Positions 60,911 through 64,000 of a DNA stretch of 64,000 bases are shown piece after piece. The stretch comes from an uncultured cyanobacterium (GTDB lineage: Bacteria > Cyanobacteriota > Cyanobacteriia > Cyanobacteriales > CAWCAG01), in the NCBI GenBank assembly GCA_963803805.1, contig CAWDOD010000003.1, positions 160,001 to 224,000 on the forward strand. The letters run 5' to 3'. The notes under the pieces are model-generated. The model ran no database searches. It saw only the letters and a list, made by a program, of their open reading frames with translations, and had not been told where the DNA came from. Both the position numbers and the translations under genes were made by a program. Every line of letters starts with the position of its first letter. The first letter of the stretch is position 1.

Positions 60911-61393
60911 ATGGTTGACCCTATATCGGTAATTGCTGGAGCCATTACTTCTCTAATTCTGCCCAAGGCAGTAGAGAAGGTAGGTGAAAAACTTGGTGAA
61001 GCGACTCTGGAGAAAAGTGGAGCAATAATCCAAGCTGCACGCCAATCTGTTCAAAATAAGCTGGAACAAGTAAATAGCTCAGGACTATTAAAAAGAGCTG
61101 AAAAAAATCCAACAAAGCATAATATTCAAGTCTTGGAAGCGGAAATTATTGGACAAATGGAAGATGACTCAGAATTTGCAGAACAGCTACAAGCTTTAGT
61201 GAATCAAGTACAGGCTCAGTCTTCATCTCTCCAAATGTTTATAAATGGATTACGGGCTAAAAATTTTGAATTAGAAAAACTAAAGCAGGTAAGTGAGAAC
61301 AAAGGAAAGTCTGAACAGATTGTAGGGCAAAACTGGCAAGTCCAGAATCTCAAGATTAGTGATGTATCAATGGAGTCTAGCGATGACAGTTAA
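60911..61393 (+). CDS. Small helical protein (Bell/HeLo-like candidate) with two C-terminal pseudo-repeats
   Basis: MVDPISVIAGAI hydrophobic N-terminus, KA.EK.GEKLGE, D.EFAEQLQALV, followed by two 21-aa repeats. Confidence 0.7.
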   Translation: MVDPISVIAGAITSLILPKAVEKVGEKLGEATLEKSGAIIQAARQSVQNKLEQVNSSGLLKRAEKNPTKHNIQVLEAEIIGQMEDDSEFAEQLQALVNQVQAQSSSLQMFINGLRAKNFELEKLKQVSENKGKSEQIVGQNWQVQNLKISDVSMESSDDS

Positions 61394-64000
61394 TCGCTCT
61401 GAAGAATTACAGAAAGCAATCGAATATGCTGAACAACAGCTATCAATTGCAAGAGAACTTAAAAACAAACAGTCTGAAAATCAGGCACTTAACATGATTG
61501 GAAACTGTTTAAATTCTTTAGGAAAATATCAACAGGCAATTAGATATTTTGAGCAGCAATTAAACATTACAAAAGAACTTTTAGATCGTGAGTCAGAAGG
61601 AGGAGTACTAGGAAATATCGGATTTTCCTACAAAGGCCTTGGAGAACATCAACGCGCTATTAACTATTTTGAACAATGGTTAGTAATTAGTCGTGAGGTT
61701 AATAATCGTATTTGGGAATCTAATTCCCTATGCACTTTGGGGGATAGCTATACTACTCTTGGTCAATATCAGAATGCTGCTGAGTTTTACGAACAAAGAC
61801 TCCCAATAGTAAGAGAGTTAAATGACAAGGCTGGTGAAGCCTATACTCTAGGATGGTTAGGTGTCAATAAGTATTTTTTAGGGGAATATCAAAGCTCTAT
61901 TGAAGTTCGCTTACAATGGTTAGCTATAACTAGAGAACTTGGTAATCGAGTAGACGAAGGTAAGGCTTTGCAAAGTATAGCTGATGGCTACTTTAGCTTA
62001 AAGCAATATTCAAAGGCTGCTGAATTTTATCAACAGGCATTGGACATTAAGCGAGAAACACGAGAAACATCTGAAGAAAAAAGTATTTTAGAGTGGCTAG
62101 GGCGCAGCTATCAGTCTTCACAACAGTACCAACAGTCGATAGAAACTTTTGAAGCTTGGTTAAATCTATGTAAACAAACTGGAGATTCTGTTCAGGAAAT
62201 CAATGCTCTTGGTTACTTGGGTGAAAGTTACAGATTATTAGAGCAGTATAAGCAATCGATAAATTGTCATCAGCAACGTTTGTCAATAGCTCAAAATATT
62301 GATAATGTTCAGGCTCAATGTTTTGCTCTAATGAGTATTGGAATAGCTCAATTTTATTCTCAGAAGTACAAAAAAGCCATAACATATTTTGAATATCAAT
62401 TAAATCTTGCCAGAAAGATTAACAATAAAGAAAGAGAATGCAATGCTTTAGGATGGCTAGGAGCTTGTTTGTATAGGCAGAAGAATTATGTCAAAGCATT
62501 AGAATATCGTCAACTACAACTCAATATCGCTAAAGAGATAAACAATTTATCTGAAGAAGTTTATGCACTGAAAAGTATAGGAGAGTCTTATCAGTGTACT
62601 TACCAATACAAACTATCTGTTCACTACTATGAACTATGTTTACCAATTGTTAAAGAGCTAAAAGATGAGTTTCAAGAAGTAGATGTTTTGTTTAATCTAG
62701 CTCATGGCTATGATAAAACCAGCCATTTTCATGAGGCTATTGAACTTTACACCAAAGCTCTAAAAATCTATCAAAAACTTGGTAATTGCAGTGCAGAAAG
62801 TAGAATATTAAGAGGGCTAGGAAGTGTATATCTTTCCTTAAGTCAATTTGAAAAATCTATTGAAGCATATGAACAGGCACTAGATATTTGTAAATATTTA
62901 GATGATATATCTTCAAAAGCTTATTGTTTACAGTCTATTGGAAATGGACATAAACAACTAAAAAATTATGCTCAAGCGATAGAATTCTACGAACAAGCAT
63001 TAGCTATTTTCAAAAAACTTAAAGATCGCTCTGGAGAGGCATATACTTTATCTAACTTTGGTGAAGCTAATGCACAACTAGGGCAACAAACAATTAAACA
63101 GAAGTCAGTTCAAGAGAACTATATTCAATCAGGAGAAAATATTCAAGGTAGCGAAGAGGAAATAATAACTGCTGAACAAGTAGTCCTCAAAAATGTGACT
63201 GCTGATAGTGTTTTTATTGAGAAAATAAATCAAATTATTGAACAGATATTCATTAAATGTAATTACTCAATAAGTAGTAAAGAAGTTGAATCTCTACTAG
63301 AAAAAGTTATTAATAAAATTGCACCTAAAGCAACTCCAGAAGTAAGAAAGAGCCTTGCTATTCAGGTAATCAAGTTATCTTTAGAAGATGAAAAACTATC
63401 AATTTCATCAGAGCAAAGTTCTCTGATATTGACCAAGCTTAGTGAGATCAGTATACAAGACTTTCAATCTTTGCTCTCTTCTGACGAAGAATATAGAAAG
63501 CTAAGGAAGCGTCTTGGTTGGTTAATTGTTGAGGATCATTTAAATGGTCGTATAGTTGGTGTTGGTATTTTTGTAGTTGGAAGTGTTGGTTTTAGTGCTG
63601 GTGTTGGTATTACGTCAGCTTATTACAGAAAAATTATTGATGAACTAACCTCGGAAGATGAAGATAAACCGAATGGCTCTAAAAATCAAGAGCCAAAATC
63701 TCCAGATCATAATGAACCTGATCGCGAAGAAAGCGCTCGCTCTTCCAAAAAACGTGAAGAAGACCTTATTACCCTTATTAGAGAGTTCATAAAACTGAAA
63801 TATATGACGACTTCTCTTATGGATGAATCATATCAACCTATATCTCCAGAAAATTCATCTAATTCAGAAGAACTTCAAGGAAATACAGTAGCCAGAAGAT
63901 CCAGTAACTTCACTGAAGATTTACCTTTATCTGGCAATGGTGCTGGAAGCAATAGCTTTCCAGTACAAAATTCATTGCAATGGTTTGAAGATATTTTCAG
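61383..64000 (+). CDS. Large TPR-repeat protein with a Gly-rich hydrophobic segment; runs off the right edge; not in the ORF track
   Basis: ATG at 61383 overlaps the upstream gene. About 14 repeats of about 40 aa (LG..Y..LG.YQ.AI...EQ.L.I.RE) extend to about 63080. The start and the stretch from 63060 to the end were translated and are open; IVGVGIFVVGSVGFSAGVGI at about 63550-63610. Confidence 0.88.
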   Translation, partial: MTVNRSEELQKAIEYAEQQLSIARELKNKQSENQALNMIGNCLNSLGKYQQAIRYFEQQLNITKELLDRESEGGVLGNIGFSYKGLGEHQRAINYFEQWLVISREVNNRIWESNSLCTLGDSYTTLGQYQNAAEFYEQRLPIVRELNDKAGEAYTLGWLGVNKYFLGEYQSSIEVRLQWLAITRELGNRVDEGKALQSIADGYFSLKQYSKAAEFYQQALDIKRETRETSEEKSILEWLGRSYQSSQQYQQSIETFEAWLNLCKQTGDSVQEINALGYLGESYRLLEQYKQSINCHQQRLSIAQNIDNVQAQCFALMSIGIAQFYSQKYKKAITYFEYQLNLARKINNKERECNALGWLGACLYRQKNYVKALEYRQLQLNIAKEINNLSEEVYALKSIGESYQCTYQYKLSVHYYELCLPIVKELKDEFQEVDVLFNLAHGYDKTSHFHEAIELYTKALKIYQKLGNCSAESRILRGLGSVYLSLSQFEKSIEAYEQALDICKYLDDISSKAYCLQSIGNGHKQLKNYAQAIEFYEQALAIFKKLKDRSGEAYTLSNFGEANAQLGQQTIKQKSVQENYIQSGENIQGSEEEIITAEQVVLKNVTADSVFIEKINQIIEQIFIKCNYSISSKEVESLLEKVINKIAPKATPEVRKSLAIQVIKLSLEDEKLSISSEQSSLILTKLSEISIQDFQSLLSSDEEYRKLRKRLGWLIVEDHLNGRIVGVGIFVVGSVGFSAGVGITSAYYRKIIDELTSEDEDKPNGSKNQEPKSPDHNEPDREESARSSKKREEDLITLIREFIKLKYMTTSLMDESYQPISPENSSNSEELQGNTVARRSSNFTEDLPLSGNGAGSNSFPVQNSLQWFEDIF

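What the first reader, a model, noticed from the sequence alone, without database searches (positions are those of the whole stretch)
60911..63233. Candidate amyloid-signalling pair: double 21-aa repeat in a Bell-like protein matched by one repeat inside the adjacent TPR protein
Seen: the small protein ends with R1 SLQMFINGLRAKNFELEKLKQ (from 61226) and R2 SEQIVGQNWQVQNLKISDVSM (from 61310). The overlapping TPR gene encodes AEQVVLKNVTADSVFIEKINQ (63171-63233) shortly after the TPR array. The three align without gaps, with a shared Q and the same alternating hydrophobic pattern. Established: HET-S/NWD2 and bacterial Bell/NLR pairs use an effector with a C-terminal repeated motif that is templated by one copy in an adjacent receptor. 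Inference: this is a variant with the motif internal to a TPR, possibly membrane-anchored, receptor with no NTPase domain visible so far. Similarity is modest and judged by eye.
Basis: partly seen in the sequence, partly recalled or inferred. Interest (0 to 1): 0.75.

Follow-up and report, generated by a model that had tools for sequence, protein, structure and literature searches.

The report
Bell-type effector paired with TPR membrane protein
A small 'Bell'-type membrane-targeting protein and the overlapping TPR membrane protein share a short repeat of the kind that related cyanobacterial immune gene pairs are thought to use to pass on a death signal, here without the usual NTPase receptor.

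Summary
The 160-aa protein (60911-61393) ends in two 21-aa repeats. The overlapping TPR gene encodes a matching 21-mer at 63171-63233. A profile of the effector repeats ranks that 21-mer second among 2.35 million background 21-mers of the genome, about 4e-4 expected per protein.

Relatives settle the family. At 43-60% identity the same small protein sits next to Avs2, NACHT, NB-ARC/TPR or FGE-sulfatase genes that begin with one copy of the motif. Their repeat fragments stand in a published set of bacterial amyloid signalling sequences, labelled C06.

The window's clade differs. Its partner has no NTPase. It reads TPR array, internal motif, helical domain, one likely membrane helix, acidic linker, glycine-zipper tail. 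Orthologues carry two internal repeats, colinear with the effector's two. The window lost the first in a 420-nt in-frame deletion, and both alleles occur in metagenome contigs.

Amyloid templating is inferred, not shown. The clade lost the motif's glycines and its hydrophobic pattern looks more helical. My reading: a new variant of a known kind, probably a cell-death or defence pair.

The parts
60911..61393 (+). Effector gene, 160 aa (P0001)
   Evidence: ORF. 26 homologues among 123 candidates, all cyanobacterial where named. No Pfam, NCBIfam or PADLOC family.
60911..61219 (+). Bell-like N-terminal helical domain (residues 1-103). It begins MVDPIS followed by a hydrophobic helix.
   Evidence: AF2 helices 4-16, 22-25, 30-53, 57-65, 69-85 and 87-103, with block pLDDT 88-96 over residues 41-100. 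Kyte-Doolittle mean 1.83 for residues 4-18. This part alone matches small proteins, and some N-termini of roughly 1000-1250-aa ORFs, in 50 of 401 cyanobacterial genomes.
61226..61288 (+). Repeat R1 (21 aa)
   Evidence: Alignments. Best PSSM partner is receptor repeat R3a in the 3 receptors that have one.
61310..61372 (+). Repeat R2 (21 aa)
   Evidence: The distant-clade R2 HMM gives this site its best hit among 23,450 genome ORFs (14.0 bits, E 0.047). Best PSSM partner is R3b.
61383..64000 (+). Receptor/partner gene. It runs 187 nt past the window end: 934 aa from ATG 61383, 942 aa from GTG 61359.
   Evidence: It overlaps the effector gene by 11 nt, as in L012. The genes downstream are convergent and unrelated.
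61383..63085 (+). TPR array (about residues 1-570)
   Evidence: Pfam TPR_12 at 2.6e-72 with 9 stretches, plus other TPR families. PADLOC 'TPR' model at 4e-66.
63086..63087 (+). Junction of a 420-nt in-frame deletion. It removed a helical cap and repeat R3a.
   Evidence: P0027 and G401 carry the extra 140-141 aa, including VLQVVLDDSKVENLYITNLSQ. Contigs of runs X3 and X4 hold 420 extra letters here. X1 and X2 have loose ends that read into the long form. One X1 contig bridges the junction in the short form.
63171..63233 (+). Internal repeat R3b (21 aa), matching R2 and R1
   Evidence: Conserved in 4 of 4 orthologous receptors and, in diverged form, in the Clp_N-fused relatives.
63234..63545 (+). 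Conserved helical domain of the partner module
   Evidence: Alignment A3. No Pfam family. The AF2 model is too poor to use (mean pLDDT 37.8).
63546..63626 (+). Gly-rich hydrophobic segment, a likely single membrane helix
   Evidence: Kyte-Doolittle 19-residue mean 1.98. The segment is shorter and less hydrophobic in the Clp_N and short relatives.
63627..64000 (+). Acidic, Ser-rich linker. The glycine-zipper-like tail lies just beyond the window.
   Evidence: Composition and tail sequence. The tail is conserved in L001, L012, P0027, P0030 and P0033.

Best explanation
This is a two-gene, translationally coupled cell-death or defence module of the Bell/BASS type.

The 160-aa protein is the executioner. 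A helical bundle sheathes an N-terminal hydrophobic helix, and a tail of two 21-aa pseudo-repeats follows. The TPR protein is the sensor. Its TPR array binds a still unknown ligand, possibly a phage protein. That binding exposes or clusters its internal copy of the repeat (one in this strain, two in orthologues) at the membrane. The clustered copy then nucleates a cross-beta fold that templates the effector's R1/R2. Templating frees the effector's N-terminal helix to attack the membrane.

What is shown: the gene pair, the shared colinear motif, the family relationship to classical Bell/NLR pairs, the absence of an NTPase, the likely membrane helix, and purifying selection on the receptor. What is inferred: amyloid templating, the role of the TPR array as sensor, membrane killing, and the anti-phage role.
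For: 1. The motif match is beyond chance and colinear. In every receptor the R1 profile's best hit is R3a where present (14.1-18.2 bits) and the R2 profile's best hit is R3b (15.9-18.5 bits), across 4 receptors. The single hhalign hit covers R1-linker-R2 against R3a-linker-R3b, E 0.011.

2. Length covaries. R1, R2 and R3 are all 21 aa in this clade and 22 aa in the others.

3. The pair is conserved. 4 of 4 window-clade loci with flanking DNA (window, L001, L012, G401) have the TPR/membrane partner directly downstream.

4. Relatives behave as the classical system. In 17 of 20 other loci a neighbouring ORF begins with one copy (by eye). I scored 13 of these, and own-pair gapless BLOSUM62 scores ran from 10 to 54. 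Partners include Avs2 (PADLOC E = 0, 1573 bits), NACHT, NACHT+NCH2, NB-ARC+TPR and FGE-sulfatase.

5. The L008 effector's repeat fragment is identical to entry C06_s076 in the supplement of PMC8086366, a set built from Bell-side BASS motifs.

6. There is a precedent for a TPR sensor without an NTPase. In E. coli Bab/Agp, amyloid templating and abortive infection were shown (10.1101/2024.11.07.622273; sections read).

7. The partner module carries other N/Q-rich or BASS-like motifs at the same position in relatives (P0032-P0037; the L057 pair).

8. dN/dS against the same-genus genome is 0.21 for the TPR array, 0.17 from motif to membrane helix, and 0.30 for the tail.
Against: 1. No experiment bears on this clade. 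As far as I read (abstract and sections 6, 7, 9 of 10.1101/2020.01.06.895854), BASS1 and BASS3 were the classes tested, not the class that the relatives fall in.

2. The clade lost both conserved glycines of the canonical motif. R1, R3a and R3b show a larger hydrophobic moment at 100 degrees (0.82-0.91) than at 170 degrees (0.12-0.41). The distant clade shows the reverse.

3. AF2 draws R1 and R3b as helices, though only at pLDDT 30-68, which is uninformative.

4. The similarity is modest. Own-pair BLOSUM62 scores are 24-31, against 27-54 for 11 of the 13 classical pairs scored; the other two scored 10 and 20. hmmsearch and the reverse scan are not genome-wide best hits.

5. The receptor looks unstable in nature. 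The window lacks R3a. A Q10-stop variant (C>T at 61410) stands in contigs of runs X2 and X4 and in G401. G401 also has a 1-nt insertion.

6. Nothing shows how a protein without a NOD domain would oligomerise.
Confidence: 0.5

Rival explanations
1. The two proteins are true partners that recognise each other through the shared repeats. In this clade, however, the contact is an ordinary stoichiometric one, such as an amphipathic-helix or coiled-coil contact or strand addition, rather than a self-propagating amyloid. The motif would have drifted from a beta-arch signal to a helical docking element.
For: Both glycines are lost and E/K/L residues gained in R1 and R3b. The 100-degree hydrophobic moment exceeds the 170-degree moment in R1, R3a and R3b, unlike the distant clade. 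The receptor has two repeats colinear with the effector's two, which suits 1:1 pairing. AF2 draws helices at low confidence.
Against: R2 keeps the G, N and Q residues and alternating pattern of the canonical motif, and the distant-clade R2 HMM gives it its best hit in the genome. The family as a whole uses the one-copy-on-sensor, two-on-effector layout typical of templating systems. The hydrophobic-moment test is crude for short strands broken by turns.
Confidence: 0.25
2. The repeat in the TPR protein is a relic of domain shuffling, and the window's pair is decaying or idle. The similarity would reflect common descent of a module, not present signalling.
For: The window's receptor lost R3a in a 420-nt deletion. 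A Q10-stop allele occurs in 2 of 4 metagenome runs and in G401, where a frameshift is present too. The module is rare: 2 of 401 cyanobacterial genomes.
Against: The window's receptor ORF is intact over 934 codons and the deletion is in frame. dN/dS is 0.17-0.30 along the receptor. R3b and R3a are conserved down to 34% identical Clp_N-fused relatives. The 11-nt overlap is kept in L012.
Confidence: 0.15
3. The three 21-mers resemble each other by chance.
For: Identity is low: 5 of 21 between R2 and R3b, counted by eye. Local hmmsearch did not pick the site.
Against: About 4e-4 expected per protein. The same colinear match recurs in all orthologues, with R1 pairing to R3a and R2 to R3b. The 21-aa length is shared.
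Confidence: 0.03

Closest known systems
Bell-domain / BASS gene pairs of filamentous bacteria (Dyrka et al., bioRxiv 10.1101/2020.01.06.895854). By the label C06 in the supplement of PMC8086366, the relatives probably fall in BASS6.
   Same: A small protein with an N-terminal hydrophobic helix, an acidic residue at position 3 and a predicted helical bundle. The C-terminal motif is present twice. The partner gene is collinear and overlapping and carries the same motif. The host is a cyanobacterium. Relatives of this very protein stand in the published motif set.
   Different: The partner is not an NB-ARC or NACHT protein. The motif sits after the TPR array, not at the N-terminus. Orthologous receptors carry two copies. 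The motif is 1 aa shorter and has lost its glycines. The partner has a likely membrane helix and a glycine-zipper tail. That C06 equals BASS6 is my inference from the set size (111), not stated in the text I read.
Bab/Agp of E. coli ECOR25 (Ibarlosa et al., bioRxiv 10.1101/2024.11.07.622273)
   Same: A Bell-related small effector plus an adjacent TPR-containing sensor without a STAND NTPase. A shared motif of about 20 aa. An abortive-infection role was shown there.
   Different: Agp carries its motif (BASS11) at the N-terminus and has GreA/B-C and PIN domains. The window's partner has neither. It has an internal motif, a membrane segment and no recognisable enzymatic domain.
HET-S / NWD2 of Podospora (as described in the two preprints above; otherwise recalled)
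   Same: Two pseudo-repeats with a short linker on the effector, and a matching copy on the sensor encoded by the adjacent gene.
   Different: The sensor there is a NACHT-WD protein with one N-terminal copy. No sequence similarity was tested here.
Avs2 (antiviral STAND NTPase)
   Same: The partner of this effector family in L008 is an Avs2 homologue whose N-terminus carries the motif (PADLOC E = 0). By resemblance to L008 (by eye), so are the partners in L014, L006, L007 and L024. This links the family to phage defence.
   Different: The window's partner has no P-loop domain at all.

Membership tests
Bell-domain effector | Short protein (about 120-160 aa) with an N-terminal hydrophobic helix and an acidic residue at position 2 or 3 ('MEPIS'-type start) | tested here: met
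   160 aa. Begins MVDPISVIAGAITSLILP, with Kyte-Doolittle mean 1.83. Relatives begin MEPLS, MEPFS or MEPVS. The feature is as described.
Bell-domain effector | Predicted helical bundle (five helices in the paper's model) | tested here: met
   AF2 gives five long helices between residues 4 and 103, plus one 4-residue turn. Block pLDDT is 88-96 for residues 41-100 and 45-82 for residues 1-40. This is a prediction only.
Bell-domain effector | Sequence relationship to proteins already classed as Bell | tested here: met
   The L008 effector (51% identical to P0001 in A2) bears a 38-aa fragment identical to C06_s076 of the Bell-side BASS set. No Pfam model of Bell was available for a direct test.
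Bell-domain effector | Fold like the solved HeLo / CC / 4HB / Bab domains | tested here: inconclusive
   Foldseek found no hit at E <= 0.001; Rx-CC 4m70 came at E 2.5. VIA-align gave the ZAR1 CC region 6j5t_G Z 5.3, rmsd 4.1 over 74 residues, at rank 2. That is far below the level that is meaningful for helical bundles.
Bell-domain effector | Membrane-damaging activity released on activation | not testable with these tools
   Needs expression and membrane assays.
BASS-type amyloid signalling pair | The same short motif at the effector's C-terminus and in the product of an adjacent, usually collinear and often overlapping gene | tested here: met
   PSSM 21.9 bits, 3.9e-4 expected. hhalign E 0.011. 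11-nt overlap.
BASS-type amyloid signalling pair | The sensor-side motif lies at the N-terminus of an NB-ARC/NACHT (NLR-like) protein | tested here: not met
   The motif lies at residues 597-617 of 934, after the TPR array. No NTPase family is found in the protein.
BASS-type amyloid signalling pair | G/N/Q-rich motif with beta-strand propensity | tested here: inconclusive
   R2 keeps G, N and Q. R1 and R3b lost the glycines, and their alpha-type hydrophobic moment exceeds the beta-type one; the reverse holds in the distant clade. No beta-arch predictor was available.
BASS-type amyloid signalling pair | Fibril formation, prion-like propagation, cross-seeding from sensor to effector | not testable with these tools
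   Needs ThT, EM, solid-state NMR and foci assays.
TGP / Agp-type sensor (TPR-GreA/B-C-PIN) | GreA/B-C and PIN domains after the TPR array | tested here: not met
   No Pfam family in the last 358 aa at E <= 0.01.
Avs / STAND NTPase sensor | P-loop STAND NTPase domain | tested here: not met
   PADLOC gives only a TPR model and two weak rows. Pfam gives TPR families only.

The most novel reading that the evidence does not exclude
The partner module is a new class of NTPase-free, membrane-tethered nucleator. Its two internal pseudo-repeats can by themselves form one complete two-rung turn of a HET-s-like solenoid, held inactive by the preceding TPR (or Clp_N) domain. Ligand binding unmasks this ready-made seed at the membrane, where it recruits and fires the Bell effector. 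The natural R3a-plus and R3a-minus alleles, which co-occur in the same sediment samples, would set different trigger thresholds.
Probability: 0.2. Interest if true: 0.8.

Novelty: new variant of a known kind. Interest (0 to 1): 0.55.

Why it matters
Amyloid signalling in bacteria has been defined through NLR-type sensors with an N-terminal motif, plus one E. coli system with a TPR-GreAB-PIN sensor. This locus shows the same effector family rewired to a sensor of another build. That sensor has no NTPase, an internal and normally duplicated motif, a membrane anchor, and interchangeable front ends (TPR, Clp_N or none).

If the pair signals by templating, nucleation does not need a NOD oligomeriser. 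Searches that look only at N-termini of NLRs would then miss part of the repertoire. If instead the motif has become a helical docking element, this would be a natural example of an amyloid signal turning into an ordinary interaction motif. The co-occurring long and short receptor alleles give a ready-made natural experiment for either case.

Tried and rejected
- **Local hmmsearch with repeat HMMs.** It found only the effector itself and did not place the TPR ORF in its 12 best rows. Short-motif local scoring is weak, so I replaced it with gapless PSSM scans.
- **Distant-clade 22-column PSSM on the window's receptor.** It failed, scoring 1.6 bits at the site. This is explained by the 1-aa shorter, glycine-less motif of this clade.
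- **AF2 of the receptor's last 358 aa with 13 sequences.** Mean pLDDT was 37.8, which is unusable.
- **Complex prediction of effector 100-160 with receptor 585-659.** It returned no answer (score 0.02, mark 0.32). I count it neither for nor against.
- **Fold searches of the effector model.** No significant match.
- **ESM Atlas.** The nearest cluster has PF20701 HetE-N on 26% of its members. Pfam scans of P0001 and 12 relatives did not show that family, so it stays a lead only.
- **The genome search with the whole alignment A3.** The Clp_N columns swamped it: ClpC-like hits in 394 of 401 genomes. I repeated it with the module part of P0031 alone.
- **The search for homologous proteins on the receptor tail.** Only 1 hit, because only the 8000 candidates sharing most words were scored.
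- **Sequencing runs.** No RNA holder is listed, so nothing can be said on expression.
- **Upstream neighbour.** The window's 664-aa ORF and the FAD_oxidored+TPR ORF of L001 are not alike (E 1.1). No synteny is conserved beyond the pair.
- **Literature.** Neither search listed a paper that describes this clade or an internal, duplicated sensor-side motif. The strings FQMFL, LQMFI, GRNWGVK and LQVVLDD do not occur in the stored supplement of PMC8086366, which was cut when stored. Supplements of the two bioRxiv preprints could not be read and may list such pairs.
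Full report
**What is there**

Two overlapping genes lie on the + strand. The first, 60911-61393, encodes a 160-aa protein. The second most likely starts at ATG 61383, 11 nt inside the first, and runs off the window. In the genome contig it ends 187 nt beyond the window end, giving 934 aa (942 aa from GTG 61359). 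The genes beyond it are convergent and unrelated. The upstream neighbour is not conserved in the orthologous locus L001. The unit is therefore this pair.

**The observation**

To ask whether the match is more than chance, I aligned 43 distinct effector homologues and cut out R1 and R2. I then built gapless PSSMs and scanned every 21-mer of every stop-to-stop ORF of 50 aa or more in the 5.3-Mb genome: 23,450 ORFs and about 2.35 million windows.

- With the R1+R2 profile of the 18 window-clade effectors, the TPR protein's AEQVVLKNVTADSVFIEKINQ scores 21.9 bits.
- Apart from the effector's own repeats, only one window in the genome scores as high. It lies in the conserved region of an ABC-transporter ATPase.
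- The expected number of such windows in a protein of this length is 3.9e-4. With R2 alone it is 0.002, and with R1 alone 0.011.
- hhalign of the effector alignment (A2, 38 rows) against the partner-module alignment (A3, 13 rows) gives one hit. It lays effector 105-156 on the partner's repeat region, E 0.011, probability 3.8%.

Results on the other side:

- Local hmmsearch did not list the TPR ORF among its 12 best rows for any of six repeat HMMs.
- The 22-column profile of the distant clade gives the site 1.6 bits.
- A reverse scan with profiles made from only four receptor repeats ranks effector R1 13th (R3a+R3b profile) or 56th (R3b profile) in the genome.
- Several profiles were tried, so the p-values are indicative only.

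**Orthologues add a second repeat**

Three further receptors of this clade were recovered: L001 (1463 aa), L012 (1009 aa), and P0027 (634 aa, which is the second half of a disrupted gene in the same-genus genome G401). A fragment, P0028, was found as well. All carry R3b. About 27 residues upstream they also carry another 21-mer, R3a, for example VLQVVLDDSKVENLYITNLSQ.

- In each receptor that has R3a (3 of the 4 scored), the best hit of the R1 profile is R3a (14.1-18.2 bits).
- In 4 of 4, the best hit of the R2 profile is R3b (15.9-18.5 bits).
- The crossed combinations score lower: 8.9-12.8 and 7.6-9.6 bits.

So receptor and effector each carry two pseudo-repeats in the same order. All are 21 aa long in this clade, against 22 aa in the other clades.

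**The window's allele**

Compared with G401, the window lacks 420 nt at 63086|63087. At protein level this removes a helical cap and R3a. Logan contigs of four sediment-metagenome runs from one study show both forms:

- X3 and X4 contigs carry 420 extra letters at that point.
- X1 and X2 have loose ends that read into the long form.
- One X1 contig (63014-63184, no differences) bridges the junction in the short form. X1 may be the sample the genome was assembled from, so this is not independent support.
- The same contigs show C>T at 61410 in X2 and X4, which turns codon 10 of the receptor into a stop.

G401 has that stop too, plus a 1-nt insertion at the equivalent of window position 62708. 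Even so, dN/dS between the two genomes is 0.21 for the TPR array, 0.17 from motif to membrane helix, and 0.30 for the tail. For the effector it is 0.54, based on only 12 changes. The receptor has thus been under purifying selection for most of that divergence.

**What family it is**

Neither protein's distinctive part matches Pfam, NCBIfam or PADLOC. Context in relatives settles the family.

The search for related loci gave 10 genome and 14 metagenome loci; L011 and L021 repeat the contig ranges of L001 and L009. Apart from the window clade, 17 of 20 distinct loci have a neighbouring ORF that begins with one copy of the motif. Two examples are ...NVKVEGNLTTGDIHQ... and ...LIVDGNLTLGNITQ... (by eye). 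The three exceptions are a truncated effector (L017), a 1.5-kb contig (L020) and an effector at a contig end (L022).

I scored 13 of these pairs. Own-pair gapless BLOSUM62 scores were 10-54, with L009 (20) and L010 (10) weak. The window-clade pairs score 24-31.

| Locus | Partner |
|---|---|
| L008 | Avs2 (PADLOC E = 0, 1573 bits) |
| L005 | NACHT followed by hydrophobic, membrane-like stretches (by eye) |
| L010 | NACHT + NCH2 |
| L015 | NB-ARC + TPR |
| L002 | FGE-sulfatase |

This is the layout described for Bell/BASS pairs: the motif lies at the C-terminus of a small Bell protein and at the N-terminus of an adjacent NLR, 91% collinear, often overlapping, sometimes as pseudo-repeats on the Bell side (10.1101/2020.01.06.895854, sections 6, 7 and 9 read).

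The supplement of PMC8086366 holds motif fragments under the label C06. These include the exact R1 region of the L008 effector (C06_s076), the L040 effector (C06_s059) and sensor-side pieces such as C06_s083. The paper says its sets are BASS1-10 motifs from Bell homologues and NLR N-termini. That C06 is BASS6 (size 111) is my inference.

The N-terminal 100 residues alone match small proteins, and a few N-termini of roughly 1000-1250-aa ORFs, in 50 of 401 sampled cyanobacterial genomes. Many of the loci I opened show other motif types shared with adjacent NB-ARC/TPR genes, for example L031 and L036.

AF2 predicts a helical bundle for residues 4-103 and no confident structure for 116-160. Fold searches are inconclusive.

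**What the partner is**

Residues 1-570 or so are TPR. After R3b come:

- a conserved helical domain;
- a Gly-rich hydrophobic stretch (Kyte-Doolittle 1.98 over 19 residues);
- a 155-aa acidic, Ser-rich linker;
- a glycine-zipper-like tail.

A HMMER scan of 1.84 billion representatives with the last 358 aa found 13 proteins. The same module occurs behind two Clp_N domains, with both repeats in diverged form (P0029, P0031; Pfam). It also occurs with no front domain, so that an N/Q-rich motif sits at the very N-terminus (P0032, P0034-P0036). In P0037 a canonical-looking ...NVTVGGDINVETIQQ... takes that place. Most of these end in a CFI-box-CTERM domain instead of the glycine zipper.

In G356 such a protein follows a 116-aa protein that begins with a similar N-terminal motif. 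The module is rare: 2 of 401 genomes with the P0031 module query. The internal position in the window's clade therefore looks like the result of adding a TPR array and a second repeat in front of a protein that ancestrally began with the motif.

**How it most likely works**

By homology of the whole system, the small protein is the executioner and the TPR protein the sensor. The sensor's repeat or repeats nucleate a fold that templates the effector's R1/R2, which releases its N-terminal helix to the membrane. The precedent for a TPR sensor without a NOD domain is Bab/Agp. There, amyloid templating, abortive infection and relocalisation of Bab to the cell periphery were shown experimentally (10.1101/2024.11.07.622273, sections 4 and 10 read). 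The Avs2 partners in relatives point to phage defence.

Everything past 'they share a conserved colinear motif and are a conserved pair' is inference. Against the amyloid step in this clade:

- The two glycines of the canonical motif are gone.
- R1, R3a and R3b have alpha-type hydrophobic periodicity (moment 0.82-0.91 at 100 degrees against 0.12-0.41 at 170 degrees). The distant clade shows the reverse.

I therefore put the templating model at 0.5, a non-amyloid docking version at 0.25, a relic or decaying pair at 0.15, and chance at 0.03.

**Novelty**

The effector family and the principle are known. Within the papers I could search and the stored, cut supplement, I did not find the following:

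- a sensor side with an internal, duplicated motif colinear with the effector's;
- this partner module, with its membrane segment and interchangeable front domains;
- the shortened, glycine-less motif;
- co-occurring alleles with one or two sensor repeats.

The supplements of the two preprints were closed and may list such pairs. My verdict is a new variant of a known kind, with interest 0.55.

Noticed in passing
window 61410; L090 (G401:C5:1819500-1826500): The receptor gene varies in nature. A C>T change makes codon 10 a stop in contigs of runs X2 and X4 and in the same-genus genome G401. G401 also has a 1-nt insertion at the equivalent of window 62708, which splits the gene into 406-aa and 634-aa ORFs. 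Its effector is intact at 95% identity.
   Followed up: partly
L057 1117-2697 (G356:C94): A 116-aa protein and a 384-aa protein both begin with a similar F(D/N)Q(R/Q)GQxV motif. The larger one has the same helical and Gly-rich module as the window's partner, plus a CFI-box-CTERM domain. This looks like a second kind of motif pair built on the same module. 'FDQRGQ' strings also occur in sets C02 and C09 of the PMC8086366 supplement.
   Followed up: partly
L017 6001-7790: An effector homologue is cut short after its first repeat. It abuts a 463-aa ORF on the other strand that looks by eye like an IS605-type TnpB. Possibly an insertion-disrupted copy; not tested.
   Followed up: no
P0008, P0025 (homologues of the small protein): Two homologues are named 'Fis family transcriptional regulator' by a source. 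The Pfam scans of P0001 and 12 relatives listed no DNA-binding family, so the name looks like a mis-annotation.
   Followed up: partly
L012 1449-1936: A 240-nt (two-TPR) tandem duplication at 87% identity lies inside the receptor's TPR array. TPR array length differs widely among orthologues, which run from 934 to 1463 aa. This fits a fast-changing sensor domain.
   Followed up: no
window 58559-60553: A 664-aa ORF just upstream has no Pfam family at E <= 0.001, although by eye it has a Rossmann-type GxGxxG stretch. It is unrelated to the upstream gene of the orthologous locus.
   Followed up: partly
L025 6127-6173 (just past the window end): The glycine-zipper tail is encoded by a 24-nt unit repeated twice at 95% identity. 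In P0028 the tail is replaced by repeated GGIDF units.
   Followed up: no
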